From assembly GCA_965287045.1 (NCBI GenBank), contig OZ336873.1, positions 49,786,001-49,850,000 of the forward strand: a stretch of 64,000 bases of DNA, in the 5' to 3' direction. Each line of letters opens with the position of its first letter. Positions within the stretch are counted from its first letter, which is position 1. Below the pieces are notes generated by a model. It searched no databases, was not told where the DNA came from, and saw only the letters and a program-made list of their open reading frames with translations. Origin of the DNA: Carcharhinus amblyrhynchos. Taxonomy: Eukaryota. Below are positions 37,667-63,531 of the stretch, one piece after another. The translations under genes and the position numbers were made by a program.

Positions 37667-37743
37667 CAATATAAATCTTTGAAATTAATTGCATGTCGAT
37701 TCCTGTCTCTGGCGAAGCTATCCAAATTTAGCTTCACATCCAC
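37667..37743 (-). CDS. GASK1A-like: Probable internal exon of the GASK1-like gene (77 nt, VDVKLNLDSFARDRNRHAINFKDLY)
   Basis: Acceptor cttctgtctttttccag|GTG and donor TTG|GTGAGT. Open in phase 0 and ends in phase 2, so it links the first exon in frame to the last exon. Similarity to family sequence is weak (INFK ~ LNFR/K). Confidence 0.55.
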
Positions 37744-37864
37744 CTGGAAAAAGACAGAAGTTTTAAAGAGAATTCAATGAATATAAGCCAAATGCACCAA
37801 GACTTCTGCCAAACATGAGTCCAAAATGCACAAGCACAGTGTGATAAAGGATAAAAGCACTCTA

Positions 37865-38148
37865 AGCATCAGGGACCCGGGTTCGATTCCCGGCTGGAGT
37901 CACTATCTGTAGGAGTTTACACATTCTCCCTATATCTGTGTGAGTTTCCTCCAGGTGCTCTGGTTTCTTCCCACAGTCCAAAGATGTGCGGGTTGGGTGG
38001 ATTGGCCATGCTAAATTGCCCCTTAGTGTCAGAGGGACTAGCTAGGATAAATGCATGGGGTTATAGGGATAGGGCCTAATTGGGATTGCGGTTGGTGAAG
38101 ACTTGGTCCGAATGGCCTCCTTCTGCACTGTAGGATTCTATGATTCTT
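37865..38148 (+). mobile_element. V-SINE, tail type A
   Basis: gggttcgattcc B-box, core and tail. Confidence 0.8.
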
Positions 38149-39146: not shown

Positions 39147-39272
39147 CAAAAGAACAGAAATTGCTGGAGAAACTCAGCAGGTCTGACAGCATCTGTGGAG
39201 GGAGAGTAGAACAGGGGTTCTCCTCGCTCTGTGCAGATGCTGTCAGACCTGCTGAGATTTTCCATCATCTTT
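39147..39272. mobile_element. Penelope-like family B fold-back copy
   Basis: ctcagcaggtctgacagcatctg ... cagatgctgtcagacctgctgag inverted arms. Confidence 0.7.
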
Positions 39273-39581
39273 AACTCTTTCATTACTTCGGATTAATAAA
39301 GATGGCCTGAGTGAAACACAGTTTTTCCTCTGACTATGTCCATTGTTTTTATGCTTTGTGGCATTTTGATAGTTACGTGCACTGCCTGCACTGCCCCCCC
39401 ACCACCGACCCCCCCCCCCCCCCCCCGGCCCCCACTTATTCCTTCTCCATCCCAGCCCCACGTCCTTAGATCAGTCCTTGGTCCTTTCCAGCAGGGTGTG
39501 TCTGCAACATAGGATGATTGCACACACTATTCAAACTAAATAGTGTACTAGAGTGACTGGAACGAAGTCTACAGAATTTAC

Positions 39582-39890
39582 CAGCACGATGGCTCAGTGG
39601 TTAGCAGTGCTGCCTCACTGCGTCAGTGACCCGGGTTCAATTCTGGCTTCAGGTCACTGTCTGTGTGGAGTTTGTACTTTCTTGTGTGGGTTTCCTCCGG
39701 GTGCTCCAGTTTCCTCCCACAGTCCAAAGATGTGTGGGTTCGGTTGATTGGCCATACAAAATTGACCCTAGTGTCCAGATGATTAGCAGGGTAAATATTG
39801 TGGAGTTACGTGAATAGGGCCTGGGTGGGATTGTGGTCAGTGCACACCTGATGGGCCAAATGGCCTCCTTCTGCACTGTCGGGATTATAT
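39582..39890 (+). mobile_element. V-SINE, tail type A
   Basis: Head, core and tail as above. Confidence 0.8.
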
Positions 39891-40269
39891 GTACAGGTGA
39901 CCTATATTTTTGCCACAAGGCAGAGATGTTTTCCTCTTCTATCAGTTATTCTCCTGAGGAGAAATTTCTAAGAAAATCTCCTGAGGAGATGATGCTGTAG
40001 TGGTAATGTTGCTGGGTTAGTTACCCAGAGGCCCAAGTTAATATTCTGGATACATGGGTTCAAATCTCACCCTGGCAACTAGTGGAGTCTAAATTCTGCC
40101 CCATAAATCTGGAATATAGAGCTATCTCAGTAATAGTGACCACAAAGCTTGTTGTAAAAACTCATTTGATTCACTGATGTCCTTTAGGGAAGGAAATCTA
40201 CTGCCCTTACCTATCAGGCCTACATGTGATTCCAGAGCCAGGGCAATGTGGTTGACTCCTAACTGCCTT

Positions 40270-40367
40270 CTGACGAAGGGTCATCTAGACTTGAAATGTT
40301 GGCTCTACTCTCTCTCTATGGATGCTGTCAGACCTGCTGAGATTTTCCAGCATTTTCTGTTTTTGTT
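40270..40367 (+). mobile_element. Penelope-like family B copy starting at its hammerhead core
   Basis: CTGACGA AGGGTC ATCTA GACTT GAAA TG TT GGCTC at 40270-40305, inserted in an older repeat. Confidence 0.7.
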
Positions 40368-41324
40368 CCCTCTAAACTGGCCTAGCAAGCCACTCAGTCC
40401 AAGGGATTAGGGATTAGGGATGCACAACAAATGCGTGCCCAGCCAGCAACGCTCACATCCCGTGAAAGAATTTTAAAAGACACTGAAATGTCAACAATCA
40501 ACATTGGATTAGCCATGTTTAGGATAAAGATTTGAAACTGCCAGGCAAAGAATAACGTTTGTTTTTTTAAAAATAATTTTCATATTCTAGTTATATATGA
40601 GAGCCAGGCTTCCTTACATTACTATGTCTCTTTGTCAGTACCTACCCATTGGCTGATTTCATCCACTATGAAAAGCTACACTAAGGGAATGGAGATGGCC
40701 TCTGTTTAGTTACATTGTGATTTGGGAGCTGGTTTCTGCTGGGCCAGAATGTGTGTGGCAGACACAGGAATGACAGAAAAGTCCTCTTGGGAAAACATAG
40801 CCCCTGCTGTATTACAGCATGGAAGGATAATTGTCTCGCATCAGAGACTATTGGAGATGAGCCAGTTTCACATGATGTAAATGCCTGGTGCTTTTTCTTT
40901 CCCATAAATGTTGTCTCCATAAATATTTGTAAATCAGCATCAGGACCTTAGTGCATTTAAAGTCACAGTAGTCTGTACCTGTGTTTTCCATGTTTAATTT
41001 TGACATCAATCTTTGCCACAGTATTTCCCAATATTTTGTGGCCTTTACCAGGCAAAATGCAAAGCCTTTCTACCATGCGGTTCACCAGGCCCCATTTAAT
41101 CTTACATAGCTGAGGATGCAGTCAGGTGCAGAGTGGATCCCAATACCATGCTTTAAAGGGGCCATCAAGCACTTTCAAGTTAGTTGCTGATCGATTTTTG
41201 TTAGGAATCAGGAGAGCTGCTGAAGGTTTGTGGTGGTATAGTTTGTGAAGTCTACAAGGCAGTAGTCTGGCACATGGTGAAAGCCTTGGTTCACACTTCA
41301 ACGGCTCTGCGCCTGACACTTACG

Positions 41325-41985
41325 TAGAATCCATTGAATCCCTATAGTGCAGAAGGAGGCCAACCAGCCCATTGAGTCTATGCCAAACCTCTGACATATC
41401 ACCCTACCCAGGCCCTAATCTGGTAGCCCTATGTATTTCCCACACCATTCCCCCTAATCTACATGTGGGGTGGCACTGTGGTTAGCAAAACTGCCTCACA
41501 ACTCCGTGGACCCGGGTTCAATCTGGCCTCAGGTGAGTAACTGTGTGAAGTTTTTTCCTGTGTCTGCGTCAGTTTCCTCCAGGTGCTCCAGTTTCCTCCC
41601 AGACTCCAAAGGCGTGTGGGTTAGGCTGATTGGCCATGCTAAATTGTCCCTTAGTGTCCTGAGATGCATAGGTTAGAGGGGTAAGTAATGTGGGGTGACG
41701 GGGGATAGGGCCTGGGTGGGATTGTTGTCGGTACAGACTCAATGGGCCAAATGGCCTCCTTCTGCACTGTAGAATTTCTATGATTCTATGATCTCTGGAT
41801 TCTAAGAGGCAATTTAGCAATGGCTAAGCCACGTATCATGCACATATTTACTGTGGGATGAAGCCAGAGCACCCGGAGGAAACCCACTCAGATACAGGGA
41901 GGACTTTCAAACTCCACACAGTCGTCCGAAGCTGGTATTGAACACAGGTTCCTGGCGCTGTGATGCAGCAGCGCTAACCACTTGC
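41325..41985. mobile_element. Nested V-SINEs: a minus copy interrupted by a plus copy (~41467-41792)
   Basis: Reverse tail, then a full forward copy, then reverse core and head. Confidence 0.75.
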
Positions 41986-42844
41986 TCTCAGTCATGGATG
42001 CTGTAGTTACCATTCCCCTTGGCCTGCAGCCTGCGCCTGAGAATGAGCAGAGTCAGCACAGAGCAGGAAATGCTGCTTAAAGAGAGAGGAGGGTGAGAAA
42101 GGCTTATAGAGGGAGGCTATGTCTATCCAGAGACCAATTCACTTGCCTCAGTTTAAGCCAGGAAGCGTGTACAATGTCTCCATTTCACTGATGACGTTCT
42201 CCCACCTCTTGCAGGTGGGAGAACCTCTTGCAGACAGGCTTGCAACTCGGAACAGGGGGAAAGATGGCACAGCCAATTGTGGGAAACGTGAGCATGGATT
42301 TGAAAGTCCTCACATCGGGCTCCTTCAGGTTGGAGCAAGCAACATTTTCAACATCTCACAGTTCACTGTCCACTGTTGTACGAGGGTGCTGACTGACCAG
42401 TCTGTACGGAAATAAGAGGGAATGCCACTCACTCTCTCAATACACAGAGTAACAGACTGGGTGAATGTATAGCATCACTGAGAGAGCTGTTTTCCCCATG
42501 GTGCCCAGTCACATTAACTGCACACATGTGGCTTTGCACGCAGAAATGTACCACAATTATAAAATAATTCCACTCCCTCAACACCCAACTGGTATGCAAC
42601 TTTCATCCACACACCATTCCGGTCAATAACCAGCTGCAGCATTGGTGCTGGAATTGTGTACCAGTCCAGTGTACCATCAACATTAATACCATTGACAGAG
42701 GGGGACATCTGGCAACCAGGGCTATCCGCTGCTCATCAGTTCATGGCAACCAATGTGCAACTCTCACCGACACCATGTACTTAATAACAGCCAAACTGCC
42801 ATACAAAGAGCACAGGTGTTTAAGCAACACCCCCACTGTCCCAG

Positions 42845-43101
42845 AGCTGCTCTGGGAGGGCTCACTGTCTGGGCTGCTCTGGGAGGGCTCACTGTCTGGG
42901 CTGCTCTGGGAGAGCTCACTGTCTGGGCTGCTCTGGGAGAGCTCACTGTCTGGGCTGCTCTGGGAGGGCTCACTGTCTGGGCTGCTCTGGGAGAGCTCAC
43001 TGTCTGGGCTGCTCTGGGAGGGCTCACTGTCTGGGCTGCTCTGGGAGGGCTCACTGGGCTGCTCTGGGACATCTCACTGTCTGGGCTGCTCTGGGAGGGC
43101 T
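42845..43101. repeat. 27-bp tandem repeat, ~9 copies
   Basis: gctgctctgggag(g/a)gctcactgtctgg; 9-aa periodicity in the ORF track. Confidence 0.92.
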
Positions 43102-44307
43102 CTGCAGAGCTTGGCATTGGGGTGTCATGATTGATTGTGTTCTATTCACAATCCCACCTTCACCTTGGTCACCAGTTATCTGATGAACAATTGACGAGGA
43201 GGAGGAAAGTCAGATACAACCAACAGATTCCTTACTCCAGCTGGACTGTCCATGACTGTCTATCTGACTCTGCTACAGTGAACACAACCCCAGTTTCCTA
43301 TTCACCCACTTCACTATCCTCTGTGACTGATCATCCTGTTCCTTTGGCCATATTGCTGATAGAAATAAAACACTTCAAAACAACCACTGCTAACATCCTG
43401 TATTCGCTTCAAAACTCAAATAATCACTCTTGTTTATTCTCCTGGTGGATTTCCCTGTCTCCATGCTCCTATATCTTGCAACCTGAATTATAACTGGCTG
43501 ACGTTCAGTGGGGAGACACTAGGTGGTCTTAGGGATGACATTTCGTAGCTATGTTCCTGGAAAGCTTGACATCAAACTGTACTAACACTGCAACACCAGC
43601 CTGGTGCCAGCTGGCTGATGGGCAGTGGCGAGAGGGTGAATATTATCATCCTGAGTGAGGATAGAGGGTTCATGCTCCCTGGAGCCTCTCCTGGAGCAGT
43701 GAGCGGAGGGGAGACAACATAACACATCAGCAATACTGGCAATGCATCAGACAGATTGCTGGAATGCTGTGACACTCTGCAAGTCCCTTTGATCCTTGTG
43801 TTAGTCTCATGGCAGCAAACTAAGCCTTTGTGACCTCAGTGAGAATGTCCGCGCGTTTATAATCCCCGTGTTTGAGAGTAAAACTTGACAATAGCAGGTG
43901 TGAAGTTGCACACAGACTGCTGCTTAGGTGTGTCCATCCGAGGGAGATTCCTGCCCAATTTGGCTCCAAATTTCAATTCAATTTGGAAGTTTCCAGAAAG
44001 CTGGGCCGCTGAAGTCATAGTATTTCAGTCCAGTATTTGTTGCCCATCCCTAATTGCCCCCTGAGTGTCTCACTCGGGCCATTTCGGGGGGTGTCATGTA
44101 ACATGCCTCCCCCCCCACCCCCACTGGCAAAGCAGCCATCTTCCAGTTTACAAGGGTCCATTTTAAAAGGTATACAAATTTTCTTCTAATTGTAATGTCT
44201 TCACAGACTGGCATGGCTCTCTACTGTACAGAGACTGCCAGCATCTGAGTTGGGCTAAAATTCGAAGGTGTTTGGCAAAACAGGGCCATGAGGATTTCTG
44301 TGAGTGG

Positions 44308-44421
44308 AACAAAAGCAGAAAATGCTGGAAAATCTGAGTGGGTCTGACAGTCTGTGTGGAAGGAGAACAGAGCCAATATTTGTTTCCGATTCCAACCGCT
44401 GCAGTATTTTGCCTTTACTAA
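44308..44421. mobile_element. Penelope-like family B copy with inverted segment and 9-bp TSD
   Basis: tgtgagtgg at 44299-44307 and 44422-44430. Confidence 0.65.
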
Positions 44422-44959
44422 TGTGAGTGGTTTGAGTGGGGAATTCACTGCCAGAGAATGTAATAGAGACAGATTCAAACGTGGCTTTCAAAAAAATTTG
44501 AACAATGATTTGAAGGGAACTGCATTTTCAGGGCAAAGCTTGGGAGTGGGATGAGGTGAGTGGCTCTTGCAGAGAGCCAGCATGAACATGACAGGACAAG
44601 TGGGCTCCTCATTTTCTCACTCTCTGATCAGTAACTGTGAGTGTGAGAACCAGTGTTTTTCCTTCATCGCTGTCTTCAGATCCCACCGTGGCAGCTGATG
44701 GAATTTAAAATTTAGTAAATAAATCTGGAATGAAAGACTGTGAGCATAAAAATATTGTTGATTGTCTTAAAAATCCATCTGGTTCATGAATGCCCTCGAG
44801 CAATGGGAATCAGGACTCCGAGCGGGCAAGAATATGGTCAACTTTTAAAAGGTGCCCTCTGCAATGGGCTAGCGAGACATGCTGTTGTATCAAGCCACTA
44901 TCGAAAAGTCAAAAAGGGATTGAACTGAACTGATCACCTTCATTAAGTTAGGCACCAGA

Positions 44960-47620
44960 AGCAACATCAGCCAGCACCTTGTTGATACTGCAAAGTCCTC
45001 CTCACTAATATGTGGGGACTTGTACTAAAATTGGGAGAGCTGTCAAATAAACCAGTCAAGCAACAAAGCAAACCAGTCAAGCAATAAAGACACACTTGCT
45101 GAATCATACCTTACAGAGACCTCAGACACCACCATCAGATAGTATCATACCCATTGAGTCTGACACACCAGAAACACTTGAACTCCCACCTAATCCCATC
45201 TATCAGCACTTGGCCCAGAGCCCTGAATGTCTTTTTTTTAAGTTAAGTTTATTTATTAGACATAAGTAAGGTTACATTACACTGCAATGAAATTACTGTG
45301 AAATTCCCGTATGTGCCAGGTGCACGTTCAGATACTTTTTAAAGGATGTGAGGCAATCTGCCTGTACCATCCTCCCAGGCAGCACATTCCAGACCAGCAC
45401 CACAAGAGCAAAGAAACTTCCAGCTGATCATCACTATCTGCACCCCTGCTCCCTCAGCTGATGAGTCAGTACTTCTCCATGTTGAACACCATTTGAAGGA
45501 AGCACTGAGGGTGAAAAGACATGAAATATATTTCAATGTCCATCATCACAAGAGTGGATCTAACAGCATTACTGACCAAGCTGGCCAAGTCCTAAAGAAT
45601 ATAGCTGCTAGTCTGTGGCAGGTGGTGAGGGAGCCATTAAGAGGGAAAAACCTACTTGACTTTGTCCTCACCAATCTACCTGCTACAGATGTATCTGTCA
45701 ATTACAGTATTGGTAGGAGTAACCACTGCACAGTCCTTGTAGAGTTAAAGTCCTATCTTCACACTATCATCTTATGTGGCATTACCACTGTGCTACATAG
45801 GAGAGATTTTGAAGATATCTAGCAATTCAAAATTGAGCATTCTTGAGGTGATGTAGGCCATCAGCAGCAGCAGAATTGTATTCAAATACAGTCTGTAACC
45901 TCATGGCCTGGCATATCCCCCATTATCATCAAGCCAGGGATCAACCCTGATTCAAAAAGGTCAGGAGGGCATTGTCAAGAGCAGTACCAGGCAGATCTAA
46001 AAGTGAGGTGTCAACCTGGCAAAGCTACCAAACAAAACTACTTGCTTGCTAAATAGTATGAGATAAACAGAGCTAATTAATCCCACAACTAATGAATCAG
46101 ATGCACAGTCTGCAGACCTGCTACATCCAGCCATGAATGGTGGTGGACAATTAAACAACTCACTGGAAGAGGAGGCTTCACAATGATAGAAGAGCCCAGT
46201 ACATCAGTGCAAAAGATACAACAATCACAACAATCTTTAGCAAGAAGTGCTGAGTGGATGATCCATCTTGGCCTCCTTTGGAGGATCCCAGCATCGCAGA
46301 TGTCAGTCTTCAGCCAATTCTATTCACTCCACATGATATTAAATGTTTGAAAGAATTGGATACTGTAAAGGCTATTGGCACTGAAAATATTCTGGCAATA
46401 GTACCAAAGACTTGTGCTGCAAAATTAACTGCACCCCTAGCCTGTTCCAGTAATGTGGAAACTTCTCCAGGTATGTCTTATCCATAAGAAGCAGGAAATA
46501 TCCAGCCTGACCAATTACTGCCCATCGGTCTACTCTCAATCCTCGGTAAAGTGGAGGAAGGGGTCATCAACAGTGCCATTGAGTGGTACTTACAAAGCAA
46601 TAGCCTGCTCAGGTCACTCAGCTCCTGATCTCATTACAGCCTTAGCCCAAACATGGACAAGTGAGCTGTATTCCAGAGATGAGATGAGAATGTCAGCCCT
46701 TGACATCAAGGCCACATTCAACCGAGTGTGGCTTCAAGGAGGCCTAGAAAAACTGGAGTTAAAGGGAATCAGGCTGAAAACACTCCGCTGGTTAAAGTCA
46801 CACTTGGCATAAAGTAGGATGGTTGTGGTGATTGAAGATAATCAACTCAGCTCCAGGACATAACTCAGGAACTCCTCAGGATAGTGTCCTGGGCCCAACC
46901 ACCCAGGTGTTTCATCAATGACCTTCCCTCCATTATAGGGTCAGAAGTGGGGTTGTTTGCTGATGACTGCACAGTGTTCAGCACCATTCATAACTACTGA
47001 AGCAATCCATGTCCAAATGCAGCAAGACCTGGACAGTATTCAGGTTTGTGTCGTTAAGTGGCAAGCAACATTCATGTTACAAGTGCCAGGCAATGACCAT
47101 CTCCAACATGAGAGGATCCAACTATTGTCCCTTGGCATTCAATGGCATTACCACCGCTGAATCCCTCGGGATGTTTAACTTCACCAGAAGTTAAACTGGA
47201 ATAACCGTATGAATACAGTGGCTGCAAGAGCAGGTCAGAGGCTGGGAATTATGTGGAAAGTAATTCATTTCCTGACTCCCAAAGCTGGTCCACCATCCAC
47301 AAAGTACAAGTCAAAAGTGTGACGGAATACTCCCTGCTTCTCTGGGTGAGTGCAGCTCCAACATTGGAGAAACTCAATGTTATCCAAGACAACGCAGCCC
47401 GGTTGATTGGCACCCCATCCACTAACATTCACTCCCTCCACCACCAACACATGGGGACAGCCATGTGTACTACCATCTACAAGATACACTGCAGGAATCA
47501 CCAAGGCTCCTTCAACAGCAAACCCACAATCTCTATCATCTAGGAGAACAAGGCTGACAGACACAGAGGAACACCACCACCTGCAAGTTCCCCACCAAGT
47601 CCCCTCCATGGATTAATAGG
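44960..47620 (+). mobile_element. Long decayed CR1/L2-group LINE (APE plus RT remnants)
   Basis: RGKNLLDFVLTN..SNH (APE C-terminus), LDTVKAIGTENI, SAPDLITAL, ALDIKATFNRVW, FADD. Same family as 12182-14135. Confidence 0.8.
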
Positions 47621-47739
47621 GACATTAGCAACATGGATACAAAATTGACCTATTAATAGGAAGCAGCAATTAACAGTCAAAGGATATTTTTCAAGTTGTA
47701 GAAAGGTTTATAATGGTATTGGAAACCTTCTTTTCAAGT

Positions 47740-48010
47740 AAAGTTTATTTATTAGTCACAAGTAGGCTTACGTTAATATTGCAATGAAGCTACTGTGAAA
47801 ATTCCCTAGTTTGGGCACACTGAGGGAGAAATTAGCATGGCCAATGCACCTAACCAGTACGTCTTTCAGACTGTGGGAAGAAACTGGAGCATCTGGAGGA
47901 AACCCACACAGACACGGGGAGAATGTGCAAACTCCACACAGACAGTGATCCAAGCCGGGAATCGAACCCAGATCCCTGGCACTGTGAAGCAGCAGTGCTA
48001 ACCACTGTAC
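47740..48010 (-). mobile_element. V-SINE, tail type B
   Basis: Reverse copy. Confidence 0.78.
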
Positions 48011-48379: not shown

Positions 48380-49239
48380 CAGCGGAGACCATTTCATGAG
48401 TTTCTCATTGGGCGCCAGTCTTCTGCACATCTCCCTGCTGAAGATTTACAGAGTAATCAGTTCTGCAGCAGAAATCGACATGGAGCTGATTACAATATGG
48501 AAATCTCCATTTACATTTTGTTAGTAGGCCCACAGCTAAAATCTTTGGGCCTGCTAGTGTCCCCCACCACCGCCCCCTCCAACCCCTCAGGACTGGTTCA
48601 CTCCAGCAGGGCTTACAACTGCTCTCCACTAACAGGAACCAGGCAGCCAAGCCTTCTGGGGTGAAGAGGGGTCATTGAGGCTTTCCCAGGAGGTCACTGA
48701 TAAGAGGGGTTGCCCCTTGGACAGTGTCAGGCTGGCAGTGCCAGCCAGGGTGGGGAGGGGAAATTGGGCCACTAGGAGGAGGGGGGCAGCTGGTGGGGTG
48801 GTATTGGGAGATCGGGGCTGGCTGGGGCCGGGGACGGGGGTGGTAGGGGCGGCGGGGAGGACAGTGTGGGGGGATGGGACATGGGGCTTGCCCGGCAAGT
48901 TCCGGGAGGCCAGCGATCAGGAGGTGGAGGGCTCTGCAAGGCCAGCAATGGGATGTTGCGGGGCTGGCCAACGATCGGATTAGTCAGTGATCTGGAGGGG
49001 GGGCAATGTGGCACTGACAGATTGGCACATGCACAGTGGCCCACACAGCGCTATGCTGCCAGCCTCTCAGACAGGAACTAGGTCTCGCTCCCTGAATTTC
49101 AGAGGGAACCCCGCTAGCACATTCTGTGATGCATATTGTGTCGGAGATTCACTCTGGAAATTACACTGAAAAAATTGCCTGGATTACTCCCATTTTCAAG
49201 TGAATTGGGGACAGGGAATTATTTTGGGAGAATCCTGGC
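48380..49239. mobile_element. GC-rich non-autonomous Harbinger-like DNA transposon
   Basis: Terminal tttgggagaatcctggc; internal blocks shared with 49845-51488, 53893-55399 and 61154-62091. Confidence 0.55.
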
Positions 49240-49844: not shown

Positions 49845-51488
49845 GGGCCCCAATTCTCCCATCCCACTGCGCTAATTTCGTGTTGGCCAATTCGTGGGGT
49901 TCGCGCCCTGCTAGCATCTCCAGGCACCAGATTTCTGCTGGTGTCAGATCCACGCTGGAAATCGGCAGGGAGGCACAAGGACTATTTAAATGATCATTTG
50001 TATATAACTTAAGTGTGATTAGTGGGCCTGGGGCTGAAGTCTCCAGGCCCACTTGCATCTTCCCACCACCACCCCCAGAGTGGTTCACTCCAGCAGGGTT
50101 TTGGGTACTTAAGAACATAAGAACATAAGAAATAGGAGCAGGAGTAGGCCATCTAGCCCTTCGAGCCTGCCCCGCCATTCAATAAGATCATGGCTCATCT
50201 GTCGTGGCTCAGTTCCACATTCCCGCCCTCTCCCCATAACCCTTAATCCCCTTGCCTATCAAAAACCTATCTACCCACGTCTTAAAAATATTTAGCGAGG
50301 CAGCCTCCACCACTTCAACGGGCAGAGAATTCCAGAGATTCACCACCCTTTGAGTGAAGAAGTTCCTCCTCAGCTCCATTCTAAACTGCCCCCCCCCCTT
50401 ATCTTGAGGCTGTGCCCTCTAGTCCTACTGTCCTTTCTGAGCGGGAAGAGCCTCTCCACCTCTATCCTATCCATCCCATTCATCATCTTGTATGTCTCAA
50501 TGAGATCTCCCCTCATTCTTCTAAACTCTAACGAGTACAAGCCCAGTTTATTCAGCCTCTCCCCATAGTTCAACCCCCTTAAACTCCGGTATCAGCCTAG
50601 TAAACCTCCTCTGCACTCCCTCCAAGGCCAAAATATCCTTGCGTAAGTGCGGCGACCAAAACTGCACACAGTACTCCAGCTGCAGCCTCACCCGTGCCCT
50701 GTACAGTTGCAGCAAGACCTCTCTACTTTTATATTCAATGGGTACCTCTCCAATAACGAGGAATTAGCAGCCTGAGTGAAGGGAGGAAATCGGGTCCCCT
50801 CAGAGGGTTGGCGGGGGGGTGCCCGTTGGGCATTGGCATCCTGACAGTGCCAACCTGGGCCCCCGGCACTGCCCAAGGGGCAAAATGCCGATGCCCAGGG
50901 GCAACTTAGGACTGCCCACTGGGCATATGGCAGTGCCAGGGTCCAGGACACACAGGGTGGGCTCTTGGAGCAGGCCCTGATGGGGCGGGTCCTGACGGTG
51001 ATTGGTGGGGATGTGTGGTCCCTCTGCCAATGGAAGAAGGGAGGCCAGCGATTGGGGGCAGGCTGGGGTGGGGTGGGGTGGGGTGGGAGGGGGCTAGCCA
51101 GGGGAGGGGTGGCCAACCTGCTGTGGGGGGCTGGCCCGGGAGAGCCAGCGATCTGGCCGTGGCTGGGGGGGGGGGAGGGGCGTGCAGAGGGCCGGCGTTA
51201 TGGGGGTTACAGAGCTGACCAGCAATTGGGAGGCCATCAGTGCGGGGCCAGTGCGCACAAACCGATCCCGGCATTGACAGTCAGCGTATGCGCAGTAGCC
51301 CTCTCAGGGCACTGGTTTCCAGTGGAAATACATCTCCCCCACTTGTTTTTAATAATATTCATGCTGGCAGCCTCTGGAGTGCAGAGCGTGGGAAATTCTT
51401 CTCTGAACTCCTGCTGAAAAAAAATGGTGAGTGAACTCCAGTGTTCCTGCGGATTGGAGACTTCGAATTTTCTTGGCAGAATTCCACC
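49845..51488. mobile_element. Non-autonomous Harbinger-like element with imperfect TIRs and 3-bp TSD, containing a CR1 insertion
   Basis: Left gggccccaattctccc, right ggcagaattccacc, flanked by tgt/tgt. Confidence 0.6.
50111..50738 (-). mobile_element. CR1 3' end, same young family as 20143-21112, TSD tgggtac
   Basis: Near-identical sequence; tgggtac at 50102-50108 and 50739-50745. Confidence 0.88.
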
Positions 51489-51523
51489 TGTGGAAATCTG
51501 AAGGTACCCGCTCCCGAAATTAC

Positions 51524-52585
51524 CTGGAAGAAATAATCCAACAACTTCAGCTTTTCCAACTCTGGGCTGTTGTTCCGGAAACACACTTTGCCTTTCTCTT
51601 CCCCGCACTGTGTGAAGACGGATGGAAACTGTGCCAGGTGGAAGAGGTAGGTGTCAAGGTGCAGGCTGGCACCTGGGGGCAGAGAGATCTGCGGATCCCA
51701 CCACACGACAGGCCGTGCCAATCCCCCCCTGTACCTGGATGGCAGCAGGGGGGACTGCAGTCGCCGAGCCACCACCGGCTGACTGACATGAAGGCCCAGA
51801 ATCCTGTCCAGGTGGAAAGCAGCCACTTCCCGCAGCTCACCGAGATCTTTCACAACTCCACAAGCTCCTGCTCGGCACAGGTCTCTGCTGCCCTCTGCAG
51901 GAAGGGTACGGTTAATGCCCAGGACAACACGGGCCATCTGCTTCCCCCTGCTGAGATGGTCAACCTTCTGAACAAATCCTCCAGTGAGGAACTTTACCAG
52001 CTGCCAGTCTCTCTGACTGAACCAAGTGATGGGTTTGTTTGGAGGGGACCCCCCAAGTAAATCCAGCAAGTGGAACCTGCTAAATCGTGGGCATTGCAAG
52101 CTGGTTTTTGCTGATTTCTTTACTTCTTTCCTCTTCTTCACTTCTGATCTCATTGGGGAATCCACATTATTCTTCTTGGCAGATTTCTGAGTGGTGTCCT
52201 TATCCGTATCATCTTGTGGAGCACCCACTATTTCATTGTCCTCTCCCAACCACTTCGTACCATCTTTGTTTTTTGGCTTCCTGACTGACCTGGCTTTTTT
52301 GGACTTTTCATTTAGGTTTGACTCCAGTATCTGCACAGAATCCGAAACAGAAAACTCCTTCCATTTATATTTACTGTGTGGCTGGAATCCGCTCTGACGG
52401 ACACCCCTGCCCTTGACTCCATTTGCTCTTGTATAAGGCTGCACAGCTGGCGGAATGTGGGATGTCCTGTCCACTGCCGGTGAGTTGACACCCAGTGTTT
52501 GCACTGTGCAAAGCAGAAGATACACAGATCCAAGGAAGCTGGCACATAAAAACATCTTCTTCTTGTTCAGCCTCATACTTGTCAT
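51524..52585 (-). CDS. GASK1A-like: First coding exon (354 codons) of a GASK1A/FAM198A-like Golgi-associated kinase-family protein
   Basis: ORF 51359..52606 has an N-terminal hydrophobic anchor (FLCASFLGSVYLLLCTV) and FAM198-type motifs CGVVK, EVAAFHLDRILGL, RPVVWWDP, LLDYFFQ. First ATG at 52585. Donor CAG|GTAATT after 51524 (phase 0) falls at the position of the family FDFLLQ| intron (recalled, not aligned). Confidence 0.85.
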
Positions 52586-53029
52586 TCTTGAGAAAACCTC
52601 AGGCACAAAGAAAATGGGGAACTTTAAAATTCCAGTACAGTTTCAAGAACCCTTCAGGACTCATTTCAGTCCATCGCACTCTTTATTGGTTCAACGTAAC
52701 CCCTGGATCCAACATAGAGCATTGGATATTTGGGAATTCCTGAAAAGGCGGTGATGTATTGAAGGAGCTCAGATATTTTTATATATAGAATAATGAATGG
52801 TTGGGAGCTTCATACAGATGAAATGTCATCAAGGGGTTCAGAGGATGATGAAATCTATAAAGATAAAATTCACATGTTATATGATTCATGTTCCAAAAGT
52901 AGATTGCAGCCTTGATTTAACTGTGGGTAAATCTGTAACTATGGACAGAAATTCATATTTAGGCAAGAGTTTACTCTTTCATTAAAACATTTTACAGTAT
53001 TTTAAACCAGTGAGATTCATTCCATTTCT

Positions 53030-53500
53030 TACAGTATTTTGCATCAGTGTGGAATATACACTGTTTTATGGTATTTTATATCAGTGTGGTGTTTACACTG
53101 TTTTATGGTATTGTATATCGGTATGGAATACACACTGTTTCATTGTATATATCAGTATGGTATATACACTGTTTTATGGTATTTTACACCAGTATGATGT
53201 ATGGTATTGTATATCAGTGTGGTATATACACTGTTTTACAGTATTGTATATCAGTGTGGAGTATACACTATTTTATGGTATTTTATATCAATGTGGAGTA
53301 TACACTGTTTTATGGTATTGTATATCGGTGTGGAATACACACTGTTTTATGGTATTGTATATCAGTGTGGAGTATACACTATTTTATGGTATTTTATGTC
53401 AATGTGGAGTATACACTGTTTTATGGTATTTTATATCAATGTGGAGTATACGCTGTTTTATGGTATTGTAAACCACTGGCAATGTTTGCAACTGTTTTAT
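53030..53500. repeat. 37-bp AT-rich tandem repeat, ~12 copies
   Basis: tatatcagtgtggagtatacactgttttatggtatt(t/g); period 37 seen at 53292 and 53329. Confidence 0.9.
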
Positions 53501-54201
53501 AAAGGTCAGGACATAGTATGGCAGCACTGAAGAGGAGGAAAGAGTTAAGTGTTATGGAGCTGCAGCCCCCGGAGTGCAGGGCTGGTGGAGACCAGCGATG
53601 TCCGGGTCACTGGGGGCTGGTGGAGGTCAAAGATGTCGGGTTTGGGGGGGGGGAGGGCGTGGCTGCAGGTGGATAAGAGGCCAGTGATGTCTGTGCTGTC
53701 AGAATGGGGCGGTAAGAGACTGGCAATGAGACCAGCGATGTCCCTAGGTGGTGAGTGGTGTGAGCCCAGTGATTTCAATGCTGGGAGGATGTGTGTACGA
53801 TCTCCCAGAGATGGGCGCATGCGCAGTGTCCCGCTCAGTGCATTAATTCCAGCCCCTTCAGTGGGAATCGGCCCCATCCTCCATTTCTCAGAGTAATTCT
53901 CGCTCAGGCTCTCTGCAGTTCACAGACTGTCGGAGGTTCAAGGCGCAATTCTGCCACATACCACTTATCGACTCCCTGCCGGGCACCATAGCCTCACCCG
54001 ATGTCCGGGAACAGGATTTCCAACATCAACAGCTCTGTGCTGAGAATCAGCACAGAGCTGATTTCAATATTGTAATCACCATTTAAATCCCATTAGCAGG
54101 CCCGCTACATCCCCCCGTGCTAGGGGTGGTTTACTCCAGTGGGGTTTAAAACACCTCCCCTCTAATGGGTAACTGGCAGCTGACCCTCCTGGAGGAAACG
54201 G

Positions 54202-54462
54202 AGTAAGAAGTCTCACAACACCAGGTTAAAGTCCAGGAGGTTTATTTGGCAGCACTAGCTTTCGGAGCACTCACTGCTCCTTCCTCAGGTGAGTGAGGAC
54301 TTGTGTTCACAAACAGGGCATTTAAAGACACAAACTCAATTTACAAGATAACACTTGGAATGCCAGTCTTTACAGGTAATCAAGTCTTTAAGGTCCAGGC
54401 AATGTGAGTGGAGAGAGGGCCAAGCACAGGTTAAAGAGATGTGTATCATCTCCAGCCAGGAC
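54202..54462 (-). mobile_element. Penelope-like element (family A) terminal fragment
   Basis: agtaagaagtctcacaacaccaggttaaagtcc... shared with the 58524 and 63321 copies. Confidence 0.7.
54253..54291 (-). ncRNA. Minimal type I hammerhead ribozyme motif
   Basis: CAC CUGAGGA A GGAGCA GUGAG UGCUCC GAAA GC UA GUG: stem I CAC/GUG, perfect 6-bp stem II, palindromic AGCU in place of stem III, CUA cleavage triplet. Confidence 0.7.
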
Positions 54463-54505
54463 CCCAGGAGGGAACAGAGGCCATGGAGGTTGGTGGTAAG
54501 GGAGG

Positions 54506-54742
54506 TAAGATCAAGTGTAGTATTTTTTAAAGCGGCATCTCAGCCTTTTGGCTAAGACGCAAATGAGATCAAGCCTTGGAGGAGGAGCTATGCCTACTCC
54601 AATCAGATTGGGTCATGTAGATCAAGCCCAAGACAGGAGGTGAGAGCCCTGTCTTGTCAGCTTGGATCGGGAATGTTTCAAACTTGTTGAGACTCTGAAT
54701 TGGACTTGATTTGATTGAATTGGAATAAAAACAAAAAAAAAA
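54506..54742 (+). mobile_element. Short poly(A)-tailed retroposon with U2 snRNA-derived 5' region
   Basis: U2 nt 22-39 (18/18) at 54506-54523 and U2 nt 4-26 (21/23) at 54535-54557, compared with recalled human U2. Two hairpin modules, AATAAA at 54724, A-tail to 54742. Confidence 0.7.
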
Positions 54743-56296
54743 TTCCTGGGCAGTTCCAGCCTGGCCCCTGACACTGCCCAAGGGGCAAGGTGGCCTCAGA
54801 GATATCTTGGCACTGCCCGGTGGGCATCAGGCAGTGCCAAGGGGAGGGAAATGTTGGGACAGGGCCAGAGGGTCAGGACCTATAGGGGGCGATCAGTGGG
54901 GTAGGGGTTCCCACTGCCACTCTGCAGTCAGAATTAGTAGCAAAGAGAGGGAAGGGGCTGACCAGGGCTGGCCATCAGGGTGGGGTGGGGCAGGGGCAGG
55001 TCTGCCTGGGGGGTAGCGCGTTGTCAGAGACATCGGGGCTGGCATGGAAACATCTGGGAGGCCAGCAATCGGGGGCTGGAGGGATTAGAGGGGCAAATCT
55101 GTGGGGTCACGGGACTGACCAGTATTCGGGAGGCCAGCAGTGTGGGGCTACTACATATACGCTGATCTCAGTGCTGACAGATCAGTGTGTGCTCAGTGGC
55201 CCACTCAGCGCTATGCTGCTGGCTTCTCCAGGGGAATAGGTCCTGCCTACAGATTTTCAGCGTGAATCTCTCTGAGGCACTCAGTGATGCACAGAGTGTG
55301 GGAGATTCATTTTAAAAATCCTGCTGAAAAAAAATCAGTGGCAGTCACTCCTGTTTTCACACAAATTGGGTACTTAGAACTTTTTGGGAGAATCCCGCCA
55401 CTATCTTCTGTGGTAAATTGCTTTGATATATATGCTGTTTGCACAGTATGTGATATTGCTGTGATTATTATGCTGTTTAGTGGTTTTCATATGGGTGTAA
55501 TATATACACTGCTTTATGAGTCTCTTAACTGCTCATTGCAATGAAATGGGAAATATAATGATGCTGTACAAAAACTAATCAAGCAGAAACTGGCTGCAAT
55601 TTGCAATGCCAATTAATGTGTAGGCTGCCCATTCCTTTCTAACCACAATTGTCTCAATCCACTTGGTATCCGTAACGATAAAGCATCATTCCGATCCAGG
55701 GTGGGCTCCTTCATAGGTGTTCAAAATAAAAATTATCTCCTTCCAAAATAGCAAACAGCACTCATGAAACTGAAAGAACACAGAAGTCTCCTTGTGTTTA
55801 TCCAGACTGCTTCAGCCTCACTGCCTCATACTTAGGACAGGCTCTTCTCTCTCTAACCAAATGTTTCCCTGGGTGGGGCAATCTAGAACAAGAGGTCACA
55901 GCAATAGGTTGGGATGCGATATATTTAAAACTGAGATGAGGAGGAACTACTCACAGAGGGTGGTGAATTTGTGGAACTCGCTGCCCATAGCGTGGTGGAG
56001 TCTGAATCATTGGCTGGAATTTTACCATCCCACTCACCACGGGAATTGGAACGGGTGAGGGGTGGACCATGGAAAGTTCCATTGACCTCGGGCAGGAGTT
56101 TCCAGTTTCGGGGTGAGCAAAGCCGGAAAATCCCATCCACTCAATGGTTTCAAGAAGGATATGGATATATTTCTGGTTAAAAACAAAATGGGTTAAAGGG
56201 ATATGGGGAACAGGTAGGAGGTGGATTTGGGACCAGGAAAAGATTAGCCATGATCTGATTGAATGGCAAAGTTGCCTTGAAGGGCTGAATTGCCAC

Positions 56297-56545
56297 ACGG
56301 CACACTGGTTAGCACTGCTGCCTCACAGCACCAGGAACCTGAGTTCGATTCCCAGTTTGGGTCACTGTCTGTGTGGAGTTTGCACATTCTCCCCATGGTC
56401 TGCATGTGTTTCCTCCCACAGTCAAAAGACATGCTGGTTAGGTGCACTGACTCAAACAGGTGCCAGAGTGTGGCGACTAGGAGATTTTCACAGTAACTTC
56501 ATTGCAGTGTTAATGTAAGCCTACTTGTGACTAATAAGTCAACTT
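56297..56545 (+). mobile_element. V-SINE (tail B) inserted in a CR1 3' fragment (~55860-56570)
   Basis: SRTRGHS..QRVVNLWNSLP precedes it; CR1 tail resumes after it. Confidence 0.7.
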
Positions 56546-58523
56546 TTCTGCTCCTAATTCTTATGTTCCTCTGTTTCATCTCACAATTACTCTGAGTAAA
56601 ACCAATGGCAGGTGTGTAAGAAATCATCCAAAGTCCCTTTGGACTGTCTGTTCAATAGTTCGAAGCTAACTTTACATTTGTAACAGTCACTTTGTATAAG
56701 CTTAAGTGAGACTTGCTGCACTGTGTGGGCTTCAGAAAGCTTGCACAGAGACAAGGAGCCGAATGGCCTTCTCTGCTGTAAATTAGCCTCCCCGACAATC
56801 TCAGTAGGGCCGGTGAATACATTTCCTCTCACACCAAACATTGAAAACCAAACTGAGAGGGAGCTAGATCTCACCTGTGAAAAGATGAGTTACGTCGTCT
56901 TCAGGCTTATGAATTGAGAGCTCCATGTTCTTTCTGACACAGTGAGTTACACTCAGTCTGTTGACAGTAATGAGCTCTGGCTGTCATCTCCTGAGAGCTG
57001 AGCTTGAAGTGTTCAGTAGTCAACCGTGGGCAATCTTGTTCCTACCTTGTATCGTTCCATTGCATCTGACAGCGCAGTGCGTGAAAACTGCAACTGAAAC
57101 AGTTCGCAGGATAACGGGGGGAGGGGCTCACTTTCTTTTTTATACACTTGAACCCCGTCCAAATGCAAGGATTCATTAGAAGTAACGCAACGTGTTCGAA
57201 CTTGAGACAATAATGGAGAAACACTGGGAGGAATTAACAGTTCGTTAGATATTCCAAGGGTGCATTCGATTAAGAATGTTAAAAAGCAGCGCCACATCTT
57301 TTGAGAGAAAAGTGAAATTATTTATTGAGTCTGTAACCATTGATGACATGCTTCAGAGACTTGTGGAAAATGCAAGGGAAAAAAGATAGTATTATTGGAT
57401 ATCAACTCCGTGAATATTAACTGCGATCAGGTACAAACTCACTCAGGGGAACACAGCAGCCAATATGCAGCAAACCCAATAAGTGAAGAGGCAGCTCTGG
57501 ACTTGGTTTTGAACCCGGACAGGTAGGAGTTTTATCACTGAGAAAGTGTTTTAGTGGCCGGGATCACCAATTCAGTTAGATTTAGCGTTGTTGTGGAAAA
57601 ACATAAAGATAGACTTAAGGGTAAAGATTTTAAACGGAGGTTAGACTCATTTTACTAAACTAGGATGTAGTTTTGACATAAAGTGGACTGGAAGCAGCGA
57701 TTGGGAAGTAAATGTGAGTCAGTGCAGTGGGAGGAACTAAAGAGGGTTCGGAACAAGTAAGTTCCCATAAAGGGAAAAGGGTGGTACTACCACAAAGTGA
57801 CGCCCTCCTGGGTGTCAACATACGGATTAGATAAGGCAAAAACAAAGCTCTTGTCAAATATCTACTGTTCAATTCAACAGAAAGCCCAGAGGAGTGTAGA
57901 AAATGCTGGGGTGAAATTGTAAAGGAAATTAGGAAAGCAAAGAGAGAGATTAAAATAAAACTGACAGGTTAAAATCAAGGGAAACCAAACGACATCTTAT
58001 AAATACGTAAAGAACAAGAGAAAAAGCAGGGCCAATTGGAGACCAAACAGGTAATTTGTGTGGAGGTGTGAAAGGCATGGCATGCTTCTTAATAAATACT
58101 TTGCATCTTTTTTTTACAAAAGAGAGGTATGGAGACATTGGGAGGGGAGGGTTCTCTGGTCTCCCTACAGTGTGTTTCTTGTAGCGAGGGGTTGGCACAC
58201 CGTTGGCTGGCAGCAGGATCTTCTGGTCCCACTGCTGTCAATGGGATTCCCCAATGTATCCATCCCCGGCTGTGGGGAAACCTGCGGTGGGGATATGCCG
58301 TAAAAGTGGGACTAGAAGATTCCGCTGACATAAACAGCCAGAGAATTCCGGCCGATGTAATGCAGCAGAAGCTTGAAATATTGAAAGGGGAATATTATTA
58401 CACTTGAAAGCGGCTAAATCAGTACGCCCAATTGAAATGTATTCCAACCAGCTATTGAAAGTAAGGGAAGAACTAGCAAAGATACAGACCACCTTTTCCC
58501 AATTCTCTGACTACAGGCATGGT

Positions 58524-58811
58524 AGTCATGATGTGGAGATGCCGGCGTTGGACTGGGGTAAACACAGTAAGAAGTCTCACAACATCAGGTTAAAGTCTAA
58601 CAGGTTTATTTTGTAGCAAAATCCACTAGCTTTCAGAGCACTGCTTCTTCGTCAGGTGAGTGGGAGTTCTGTTCACAAACAGGACATATAAAGGCACAAC
58701 TCAATTTACAAATTGTAAATTGTAGCAAAGGAGTAGCCAGCGCTCTGAAAGCTAGTGGCTTTTGCGACCAAATAAACCTGTTGGACTGTAGCCTGGTGTT
58801 GTGAGACTTCT
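58524..58811 (-). mobile_element. Penelope-like family A element with inverted partial terminal repeat, hammerhead motif (58624-58658) and 12-bp TSD
   Basis: tacagg(c/t)atggt at 58512-58523 and 58812-58823; CAC CUGACGA AGAAGC AGU GCUCU GAAA GC UA GUG on minus. Confidence 0.75.
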
Positions 58812-58885
58812 TACAGGTATGGTGCCAGAGGACTGCAGGAAAATTGGATCAGCCATTAAAAAGAAAGGAAGGGATAGTCTGAGTA

Positions 58886-58951
58886 TTAAAAGCAAATTAC
58901 TGCGAATACTGGAATCTGAAACCAAGAGGCATTTTCCAGCATTTTCTCTTT
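58886..58951. mobile_element. 66-bp Penelope-like family B remnant with 11-bp TSD
   Basis: tagtctgagta at 58875-58885 and 58952-58962. Confidence 0.6.
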
Positions 58952-59180
58952 TAGTCTGAGTAATTACAGGCCAGTCCTCCCAACCTTAGCGGTGGACAAA
59001 TTATTGGAAACCATTCTGAAAGACTGCGTATATCACTGAGAGAGGCACAGATTAATCAAGTACAAATTTATGAAGGAATGGTCATGTCTGAATAATGATT
59101 GGGATTATTGAGGAGGTAACAAGGAGGGTCAATGAGGAGAGTGTGTTTGATATAAAATGCATGGATTTTAGCAAGGTTTT

Positions 59181-60303
59181 TAGAACATAGAACAGTACAG
59201 CACTGTACAGGCCCTTCAGCCCTCAATGTTGTGCCAAGCTATGTCGGAACCCAAGATCAAGCTATCCCACTCCCTATCATTCTGCTATGTTCCATGTGCC
59301 TATCCAATAACCACTTGAAAGATCCTACAGTGTCCCACTCCATTATCACAGCAGGCAGTGCATTCCACACCCCAACCACACTCAGAGTAAAGAATCTACC
59401 TTGGACATCCCTCCTATATCTCCCACCATGAACCTTATAGTTATGCCCCCTAGTAACAGCTACATCCACCTGAGGAAATAGTCTCTGCACATGCGCTCTA
59501 TCTATTCCCCTCATCATCTGTAAACTTTTATTAAGTCGCCTCTCATCCTCCTCCGCTCCAATGAGAAAAGCCCCAGCTCCCTCAACCTTTCCTCACAAGA
59601 CCGACACTCCAAACCAGGCAGCATCCTCGTAAATCTCCTCTGTACTCTCTCCAATGCTTCCACATCCTTCTTATAGCGAGGTGACCAGAACTGAACACGA
59701 TATTCCAAATGTGGTCTCACCAAGATCCTGTATAGTTGCAGCATATCCCCACGGCTCTTAAACTCAAATCCCCTGTTAATAAACGCTAACACACTATAAG
59801 CCTTCTTCATGGCTCTATCCACTTGAGTGGCAGCCTTCAGAGATCTGTGTATATAAACCCCAAGATCTCTCTGTTCCTCCACATTCCTCAGAACCCTGCC
59901 ATTGACCCTGCAATCCACATTCAAGTTTGTCCTACCAAAATGAATCACCTCGCACTTATCAGGGTTAAACTCCATCTGCCACTTTTCGGCCCAGCTCTGA
60001 ATCCTATCAATATCTCTTTGCAGCCTACAAGAGCCTTCCACCTCATCCACTACTCCACCAGTCTTGGTGTCATCAGCAAATTTACTAACCCACCCTTCAG
60101 CCCTCTCTTCCAAGTCATTGATAAAAATCACAAATCCCCGTGGTACACCGCTGGTACCTGGCCTGCAGTCTGAAAATTTTCCCTCCACCACCACTCTCTG
60201 GTTTCTATGAGACAGCCAGTTACTTATCCAATCGGCCAAATTTCCTTCTATCCCACACCTCCTTACTTTCTTCATGAGCCTACCATGGGGAACCCTATCA
60301 AAT
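59181..60303 (-). mobile_element. 5'-truncated CR1 LINE (RT region, one frameshift near 59515)
   Basis: ORFs 59514..60275 (SGVP, FINDL, SKFADDTK) and 59257..59517; (agaacat)n tail. Confidence 0.9.
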
Positions 60304-60654
60304 GGTAAGGTTGATAGGGTTCAACATGGCAGACTGGTCAAGTAGGTAAAAGCTCAGAAAGTCCAAGGGAAGGTGGCAAGGTGGATCCAAACTTGATTCA
60401 GTGGCAGGAAGTAAAGGGTATATTTGTACTTCCAGTGGGGTTCTGCAGGGTCCTGACTCCAAGACTTTAGTGGTTTATAGCAATGATTTAGTCTTCAGTA
60501 TAGGGGGCATGATGAAGATGTTTTCAAATAGTACAAAAGCTGACTGTGTGTCTGACATTGAGGAAGAAAGGTATCAACTGCAGGAAGCTATCAAGGGACT
60601 GTTCAAGGCGAACATTGGTAGCAAATAGAATTCAATCCAGAGAAGTGTGGGGTA

Positions 60655-62819: not shown

Positions 62820-63320
62820 GTCAAATGGGCTCTTTCTGTGTTTCTGTTATAAACCTCCCTTCCTGATCAGTGACCTGTAGGAGTGGATTATCTGTCCTTC
62901 AGAGAACCTCAGGGGTTCCAGAGGTCATGCTTGCACCTGCAATCCAAAACACCAGCTGTGACCTCAGGAGGCCAGTGCCAGTGTGAAAGATAAATGAGGC
63001 ACCAAGTCTCTCTCTGCAAAGTATCTGCCTATCAGTGGCGAGAAGGGAGGTCCAGACATTCCTCACGCTGGTGGATGAGCTGCCTGAAATCCCTGTGGAT
63101 CCCTCTCAGGGCACTCCAGAGGAGGCCACTAGCCCCTCTGCCCCTCTTCCAATGTTCACAGAATCTGACAATGCCATGACGACTCAGGAATGTGCAGCCA
63201 TGGGGCTGGGCGCACCCTCCCAGACAGAGACTACTTCGGTTCCGGGGGCTAGAGAACGATTGGTGAGGTCACCAAGGTCAATGAGACAGCAGGGTCAGCG
63301 GGCTGCCTCCAGTGGCACTG

Positions 63321-63531
63321 TAAAAAGTCTGACAACACCAGGTTTTAGTCCAACCTATTTATTTGATAATATACTCGCAAGCTTTCGGGTTAGCCCCTTC
63401 GTCAGGTGACGAAGGGGCTAACCCGAAAGCTTGCGAGTATATTATCAAATAAATAGGTTGGACTAAAACCTGGTGTTGTCAGACTTTTTACTGTGTTTAC
63501 GCCAGTCCAACGCCGGCATACCCACATCATG
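63321..63531 (+). mobile_element. Penelope-like family A element forming a perfect palindrome, 13-bp TSD
   Basis: Arms 63320-63404 and 63407-63491 around a 2-nt loop; tcca(g/a)tggcactg at 63308-63320 and 63532-63544. Confidence 0.85.

What the first reader, a model, noticed from the sequence alone, without database searches (positions are those of the whole stretch)
54506..54742. Structured poly(A) retroposon built on permuted U2 snRNA fragments (candidate shark SINEU-like or non-autonomous Keno element)
Seen: TAAGATCAAGTGTAGTAT (U2 nt 22-39, including the branch-point pairing GTAGTA) comes first. A T-run follows, then GCATCTCAGCCTTTTGGCTAAGA (U2 nt 4-26), so the U2 pieces are out of order. 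Next are two paralogous modules AGATCAAGCC-[hairpin]-TCAG(A/C)TTGG(G/A)TC. Their inner stems differ in sequence but both pair (ttggag/ctccaa; caagacagg/cctgtcttg, 9 bp), and each module starts with U2-like AGATCAAG. The element ends in AATAAA and an A-tail and sits inside a DNA transposon, not at a U2 gene. Known: Tx1-clade Keno and NeSL-like Utopia retrotransposons target U2 genes near this position, and U1/U2-headed SINEU families are described from crocodilians. Inference: a non-autonomous element mobilised by a U2-targeting LINE, carrying target sequence at its 5' end, or an independently evolved U2-derived SINE. No clear TSD is visible.
Basis: partly seen in the sequence, partly recalled or inferred. 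Interest (0 to 1): 0.75.

Follow-up and report, generated by a model that had tools for sequence, protein, structure and literature searches.

The report
Shark retroposon end mimicking U2 hairpin
This is the cut-off tail of a very abundant shark jumping element that carries a built-in copy of a hairpin from the U2 splicing RNA, and this one copy also has a separate scrap of U2 at its front, likely picked up while it was being inserted, so the "scrambled U2" is two separate events, not one design.

Summary
The motifs are real, but the "permuted U2" unit is not a family. Contigs from 4 public runs (4 organism labels) cover 54522-54742 at very high depth, so the body is an abundant, dispersed poly(A) retroposon. 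The front U2 piece (54506-54523, U2 nt 22-39) has near-zero depth. The family instead continues upstream of 54522 with its own shared sequence. This copy is therefore 5'-truncated, and its U2 front is a rare addition that ends at nt 37-39, around the Keno/Utopia site.

The family-level feature is internal. It is a U2 stem-loop I copy (nt 4-29) whose four changes from U2 all create Watson-Crick pairs, followed by two hairpin modules with identical flanks and a third hairpin. Common variants avoid the modules' upper stems. The copy sits in a TIR-bounded DNA element, without a TSD, near a GASK1A-like exon of a shark.

I could not see the family's 5' end or partner LINE, and could not search Repbase or Dfam. 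It works like the Tx1/SINEU system of crocodilians, but membership in SINEU, Keno or Utopia is not shown. In passing: 4 small circular virus contigs carry a U2 5'-domain mimic between rep and cap.

The parts
54506..54523 (+). U2 snRNA nt 22-39, rare addition seen on this copy; the last two bases (54522-54523) can be read as U2 or as family, a 2-nt microhomology, so the U2 end point is nt 37-39
   Evidence: depth near zero in 4 runs, table 2
54522..54742 (+). 5'-truncated 3' end of an abundant poly(A) retroposon family
   Evidence: tables 2, 7, 8
54535..54560 (+). U2 stem-loop I mimic (U2 nt 4-29), extended and stabilised in the family; C at 54558 is private to this copy
54566..54614 (+). Hairpin module 1: U2-like AGATCAAG start, 6+3 bp upper stem, variable 7-nt loop; 54607 and 54612 decayed in this copy
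54619..54668 (+). Hairpin module 2: same flanks as module 1, 9-bp upper stem, 10-nt loop
54675..54693 (+).
54704..54712 (+). Tail stretch complementary to U2 nt 24-32 and so also to the modules' own 5' strands (predicted duplex -10.1 kcal/mol, no shuffle control)
54724..54742 (+). AATAAA (54724-54729) running into the A-tail
53942..55399 (.). Host non-autonomous DNA-transposon-like element with imperfect terminal inverted repeats; interrupted by the retroposon and by another repeat
   Evidence: empty-site joints tables 5, 5c
54200..54462 (.). Fragment of a second, unrelated high-copy repeat nested in the same host (Penelope-like is a recalled label, from no call)

Best explanation
54522-54742 is the 5'-truncated 3' end of an abundant, dispersed shark poly(A) retroposon that carries an internal U2 stem-loop I copy and three more hairpins, which likely form the RNA signal used by a LINE reverse transcriptase (probably Tx1/L1 type), and the U2 nt 22-38 piece in front was likely added to this copy by a template switch to U2 snRNA during insertion. 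Shown: abundance, truncation, rarity of the U2 front, identical module flanks in the family, insertion in a TIR element without TSD. Inferred steps: (1) target-primed reverse transcription began at the A-tail; (2) it stopped at the T-run at 54522-54528; (3) the cDNA end paired through 2 nt with U2 A38-U39, next to the branch-point-binding stretch, copied 16 more bases and joined the host; (4) the hairpins were kept by selection on source elements, not on this copy, which has about five private changes. Whether the full element is an autonomous LINE (about 55%) or a longer SINE-like element (about 40%) is open.
For: Depth and loose ends in 4 of 4 runs laid. Against human U2 the family hairpin differs at four positions (U2 nt 6, 11, 28, 29) and each turns a mismatch or G-U into a Watson-Crick pair: -14.5 kcal/mol, against -10.1 for this copy and -7.0 for the U2-like nt 4-29 of L021. 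Majority-letter body folds at z -3.4 (1 of 150 shuffles as good) with upper stems at probability 0.8-1.0. Of 9 sites with variants at 5% or more in a DNA run within 54536-54693, 6 are unpaired, 3 paired, none in a module's upper stem (P 0.04). One compensatory pair, 54576/54602, is inferred from similar depths in X18 (535 and 431). Repeated 5' addition of U1/U2 pieces with short junction homology, and U1/U2-headed Tx1 families, are described in PMC4494074. snRNA truncations cluster in single-stranded segments with junction complementarity (PMC4476161 section 8).
Against: The partner LINE and the family's 5' end were not seen; only 30 upstream letters are visible. In human, the one U2/L1 chimera reported is inverted and same-sense switching is mostly to U6. 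The U2 end point includes the Keno/Utopia site (nt 38/39), which the rival explains directly. There is no TSD. The minus strand folds as well or better (z -4.4 and -6.0), so energy alone does not show an RNA role. The module lower stems are only about 0.45 probable because identical flanks can swap partners. The variant test is weak, subfamilies are not independent, and linkage of the compensatory pair is not shown. The read tool drops human-like contigs, which may hide U2-joined copies.
Confidence: 0.55

Rival explanations
1. The family descends from a U2-targeting LINE (Keno- or Utopia-like). A copy truncated at 54522 once landed at nt 38/39 of a real U2 gene, was transcribed from the U2 promoter as a U2(1-38)-body fusion, and this fusion retrotransposed here. 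This would be the founding step of a U2-headed SINE.
For: The U2 piece can end exactly at nt 38, where Utopia and Keno insert. A little depth exists over 54504-54517 in both DNA runs (22.8 and 3.9). Crocodilian Utopia shows weakened targeting. It would supply the promoter that SINEU lacks.
Against: Bulk 3' flanks are heterogeneous (agreement 0.35-0.36). The U2-fronted form is under 1 in 10,000 of body depth. None of 5 body or tail motifs occurs in the 10 Utopia supplements. No ORF could be tied to the body.
Confidence: 0.28
2. Two separate insertions: a tailless U2 fragment entered the host element first, and the retroposon later inserted at its nt 38/39 because it resembles a U2 target.
For: Removing the body leaves the U2 piece next to a host flank that begins with T, loosely like degenerate Utopia sites. 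Tailless snRNA retrocopies are common in mammals.
Against: None of the 4 empty-site spacers printed holds a U2 piece (table 5c). An 18-nt fragment cut at both ends with no TSD is unusual (inference). It needs two rare events at one base.
Confidence: 0.1
3. One reading: a SINE family that starts with U2 nt 22-39 and is built on permuted U2 pieces.
For: Both U2 pieces are real and adjacent; complex U1/U2 arrays occur in SINEU-1.
Against: The front piece is nearly absent in all 4 runs while a different upstream sequence is shared. The runs may not include the window's own species (best share of words 0.50).
Confidence: 0.05

Closest known systems
SINEU-1/2/3 and U1/U2-headed Tx1-Mar families of crocodilians (PMC4494074; parts 1-4 of 5 read, supplements not available)
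   Same: Poly(A) retroposon with U2-derived sequence, 5' addition of a U2 piece with short junction homology, copy nested in a non-autonomous DNA transposon.
   Different: Shark host (the paper found none outside crocodilians). The shared U2 piece is internal, about 180-210 nt from the tail, not a head. It is rebuilt into a stronger hairpin and followed by duplicated modules. No target preference is seen.
Keno (Tx1 clade) and Utopia (NeSL clade) U2-targeting LINEs (PMC4640811 parts 2-3 of 5, passages, supplement 4 part 1 and supplement searches; PMC6136364 passages)
   Same: The front U2 piece can end at their insertion site, nt 38/39; AATAAA-type end.
   Different: 3' flank is not U2 nt 39 onward; the family is abundant and dispersed; no motif match to listed Utopia ends; no ORF seen.
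snRNA/LINE template-switch chimeras, group IV of PMC4476161 (sections 6 and 8 and passages read)
   Same: snRNA piece in the same sense in front of a 5'-truncated retroposon.
   Different: U2 rather than U6, cut at both ends, no TSD.

Membership tests
SINEU | Family-wide 5' head from U1 or U2 | tested here: not met
   Front U2 piece nearly absent; family continues upstream with non-U2 sequence. The true 5' end was not seen.
SINEU | 3' poly(A) tail | tested here: met
SINEU | Short (under about 500 bp), non-coding unit | not testable with these tools
   Only 30 letters upstream of 54522 are shown; no genome held.
SINEU | Target preference shared with a Tx1 partner | tested here: inconclusive
   This copy is in a TIR element, but 3' loose ends are heterogeneous.
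SINEU | Sequence similarity to SINEU consensus | not testable with these tools
   Repbase/Dfam not available; paper supplements not held.
Keno | Insertion in U2 genes with U2 nt 39 onward as 3' flank | tested here: not met
   This copy's flank is host DNA; bulk flanks vary. Human-like contigs are filtered, so rare U2 insertions could be hidden.
Keno | 5' neighbour ends at U2 nt 38 | tested here: met
   end point ambiguous over nt 37-39; this copy only
Keno | Tx1-clade ORF2 with AP-type endonuclease | not testable with these tools
   No linked ORF; frame searches gave nothing.
Utopia | Restriction-like endonuclease ORF, NeSL-clade RT | not testable with these tools
   no linked ORF
Utopia | 3' end like listed Utopia families | tested here: inconclusive
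   0 of 5 exact motifs found in 10 supplements; exact matching cannot exclude distant relatives.
U2 gene or plain pseudogene (RF00004) | Collinear match at or above 46 bits | tested here: not met
   17.8 bits over model 7-26; nothing at E up to 1 in 50000-60000.
snRNA/LINE template-switch chimera | Same-sense snRNA piece fused to a 5'-truncated retroposon | tested here: met
   2-nt junction homology
snRNA/LINE template-switch chimera | Whole chimera flanked by a TSD | tested here: not met
Known ribozymes and other Rfam RNAs | Match to an Rfam model | tested here: not met
   13 matches up to E 10, none near a gathering score, no hammerhead, HDV or twister family among them.

The most novel reading that the evidence does not exclude
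A shark retroposon lineage uses a U2 5'-domain mimic plus U2-antisense stretches in its 3' end to bind U2 snRNA or U2 proteins, which aids 3' processing or mobilisation and keeps producing U2-headed copies: SINEU birth caught in progress outside crocodilians. The U2 mimic found downstream of a stop codon in four small circular viruses would be the same device evolved independently.
Probability: 0.15. Interest if true: 0.8.

Novelty: new variant of a known kind. Interest (0 to 1): 0.5.

Why it matters
How SINEs with snRNA heads arise and get transcribed is an open question in PMC4494074. An abundant shark family with a structurally improved internal U2 hairpin and occasional U2-fronted copies ending near the Keno/Utopia site lets the two routes (template switch, or read-through from a copy inside a U2 gene) be told apart by counting junctions in existing assemblies. 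The duplicated module with fixed flanks and variable stem is a compact candidate for a reverse-transcriptase or host-protein binding site. If the family is already in Repbase as a Tx1 3' end, what stays new is the structure analysis.

Tried and rejected
No genome is held for the window. No second copy in the window.

Collection scans. The metagenome scan with the module pattern gave 7 loci; 6 are one unrelated repeat and 1 a GC-rich contig, and none aligns to the body beyond the motif or A-runs: chance. Prokaryote genomes gave 0. Viral scans for the module or the split U2 motif gave 0. The front 18-mer hit 26 viral loci; 23 show no U2 flanks and are treated as chance, 3 are U2-like.

Protein route to the upstream part. 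Two frames of the element gave 0 hits among 4 and 1 candidates; the HMMER search gave 1 hit, an unrelated repeat protein. The 30 upstream letters and one variant do not fix a reading frame.

Structure. The 15-bp long helix (54600-54614 with 54703-54717) in this copy's best fold depends on private changes and has probability 0 in majority letters: rejected. No tRNA; the bacterial promoter scan is uninformative.

Runs. Of 24 rows listed, 20 hold part of the stretch (12 studies, 9 organism labels, shares 0.21-0.50); I laid 4, and the other 16 are listing only. No RNA holder listed on record; X15 and X18 are guessed RNA, so expression is not shown. Two X15 contigs seem to start at the tail and run 0.5 and 1.9 kb upstream, but orientation is my reading of table 8 and their content is not shown.

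Literature. Searches found no shark snRNA-derived retroposon; one search (six sequence words) gave one influenza paper, chance. Passages only were read in PMC5499810, PMC7245038, PMC5381603, PMC3747384, PMC5786205, PMC2912911. Kojima and Fujiwara 2004 (Keno) was not read. SINEU supplements were not available and may bear on similarity. Look-ups of earlier findings by sequence, place and two word sets were empty.

Full report
Setting. The window comes from a shark: the long frame at 51359-52642 (minus strand) holds a FAM198 domain and its best relative is GASK1A-like of Mustelus asterias at 90% identity, then Scyliorhinus torazame at 77% (15 hits). The finding lies about 1.9 kb upstream of that exon, on the opposite strand. 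No whole genome is held, so copy evidence comes from public runs.

Observation. Using human U2 as printed in supplement 1 of PMC4640811, 54506-54523 is U2 nt 22-39 and 54535-54560 corresponds to nt 4-29. The first match is far beyond chance (about 2e-8). Rfam sees only the hairpin, weakly (17.8 bits). The insertion interrupts an element with imperfect inverted ends at 53942 and 55399 (12 of 15) whose parts align with other window copies. A second repeat is nested in the same host at about 54200-54462. No TSD adjoins the insertion.

Family. Twenty of 24 listed runs hold part of the stretch. I laid four, from organism labels A, B, D and H. Summed depth over the body reaches 397,000 and 261,000 in the two DNA runs, where long single contigs have depth near 8; the ratio is 29,000-48,000. 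The tool warns that this is no copy number, and overlapping contigs inflate it, so I infer thousands to tens of thousands of copies. Depth over 54504-54517 is 22.8, 3.9, 0 and 0. Contigs that cross 54522 continue with one shared non-U2 sequence in all four runs (131, 130, 13, 11 contigs; agreement 0.77-0.84). Contigs that leave the A-tail disagree (0.35-0.36 in the DNA runs, 0.55 for 5 contigs in X18). Joints from 54489 to 54745-54766 show the host without the insertion, and none of the four printed spacers holds U2. So the body is a dispersed family, this copy is truncated at 54522, and the U2 front is rare. Caveats: human-like contigs are filtered out, which may hide U2-joined copies, and the window's own species may not be among the runs (best share 0.50).

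Structure. This copy differs from the majority at 54558, 54607, 54612, 54677 (97-99.9% of depth in the DNA runs) and probably by one extra A at 54680-54682. With majority letters the two modules have identical flanks and the body folds at z -3.4, against -2.6 for this copy. The U2 hairpin differs from human U2 at nt 6, 11, 28 and 29, and all four changes make Watson-Crick pairs (read; -14.5 kcal/mol). Upper stems of both modules and a third hairpin at 54675-54693 have pair probabilities of 0.8-1.0, apart from one third-hairpin pair at 0.59; lower stems are near 0.45 or less because identical flanks can swap, and the best fold pairs module 1's 5' strand with the tail. Of 11 sites with variants at 5% or more in a DNA run (I left out the four private sites, the indel position 54680 and host sites; 4 rows were not shown by the tool), 9 lie in 54536-54693: 6 unpaired, 3 paired, none in an upper module stem (P 0.04, weak). 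One U-A to C-G switch (54576/54602) is suggested by depths in X18. Against: the minus strand folds as well, and the long helix in this copy's best fold is an artefact of its private changes. The tail stretch 54704-54712 is complementary to U2 nt 24-32 (no control), but equally to the modules' own 5' strands, and a common variant at 54712 breaks its end pair.

Mechanism. The A-tail, AATAAA, 5' truncation and mixed flanks fit target-primed reverse transcription by a Tx1/L1-type enzyme (established knowledge; clade inferred). The U2 front joins through two shared bases, so U2 ends at nt 37-39. Utopia and Keno insert between nt 38 and 39. Template switching to U2 is how PMC4494074 explains repeated U1/U2 additions on SINEU and Tx1-Mar, and snRNA truncations cluster in single-stranded segments; I give this 0.55. 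Read-through from a truncated copy inside a U2 gene explains the end point more directly but has no support from flanks; 0.28. Human data argue that same-sense U2 chimeras are rare.

Comparison. It works like the crocodilian Tx1/SINEU system. It is not filed as SINEU (no shared U2 head), Keno (3' flank not U2) or Utopia (no ORF, no motif match). I found no description of a shark snRNA-derived retroposon in searches, but Repbase, Dfam and the original Keno paper were out of reach, so prior cataloguing is quite possible.

Side finding. Three viral contigs with Rep and circovirus capsid genes (L018, L021, L033) and one with a Rep gene and an unassigned second frame (L034) carry U2 nt 1 to about 42 between the two stop codons. 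Rfam scores are 49.7, 35.0, 28.8 and 25.8 bits (E 8.5e-8 to 0.047); all 4 loci found by the 20-letter scan are of this kind. Beyond the U2 words they share nothing with the shark body. Searches listed no paper on it (0 and 5 unrelated titles, listings only).

Verdict. Real feature, partly misread. New variant of a known kind; interest 0.5.

Noticed in passing
L021:985-1027 (-), L018:990-1034 (-), L033:1052-1098 (-), L034:1096-1140 (+): Four small circular DNA virus contigs (three with Rep plus circovirus capsid, one with Rep plus an unassigned frame) carry a U2 snRNA 5'-domain mimic (about nt 1-42) in the gap between the two stop codons; Rfam U2 49.7 to 25.8 bits. In the three circovirus-like contigs it lies on the capsid strand, in L021 and L018 ahead of AATAAA. 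No paper found in searches. May deserve its own follow-up.
   Followed up: partly
table 7, upstream of window 54522: The family's shared upstream 30 letters, and a variant in one X1 contig that also shows a partial duplication (joint 54525 back to 54522). One X1 contig joins the tail back to 54522, a tandem arrangement.
   Followed up: partly
window 54200-54462: Fragment of a very abundant repeat (depth up to 847,000 in X1; more pieces at 58553-58814, 63320-63505), flanked by a decayed duplication of about 20 bp. Penelope-like is a recalled label.
   Followed up: partly
window 53942-55399; relatives near 48400-49239 and 50840-51488: Family of non-autonomous DNA-transposon-like elements with short GGC-starting inverted ends; 53545-53940 looks like another partial copy.
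   Followed up: partly
window 51359-52642 (-): Large coding exon of a GASK1A-like (FAM198) gene; a related DNA element ends at 51488 beside or within its 3' part.
   Followed up: partly
window 9318-11279, 29572-32265, 52990-53500: Long tandem arrays (units of about 42 bp, about 23 bp and about 37 bp, judged from self-alignment offsets) that give spurious long open frames.
   Followed up: no
window 884-1687 (+), 20240-21133 (-), 59514-60320 (-): Related reverse-transcriptase-end fragments of a LINE (CR1-like is a recalled label; weak RVT_1 hit for the second), and about 20 copies of a 300-bp SINE-like repeat across the window.
   Followed up: no
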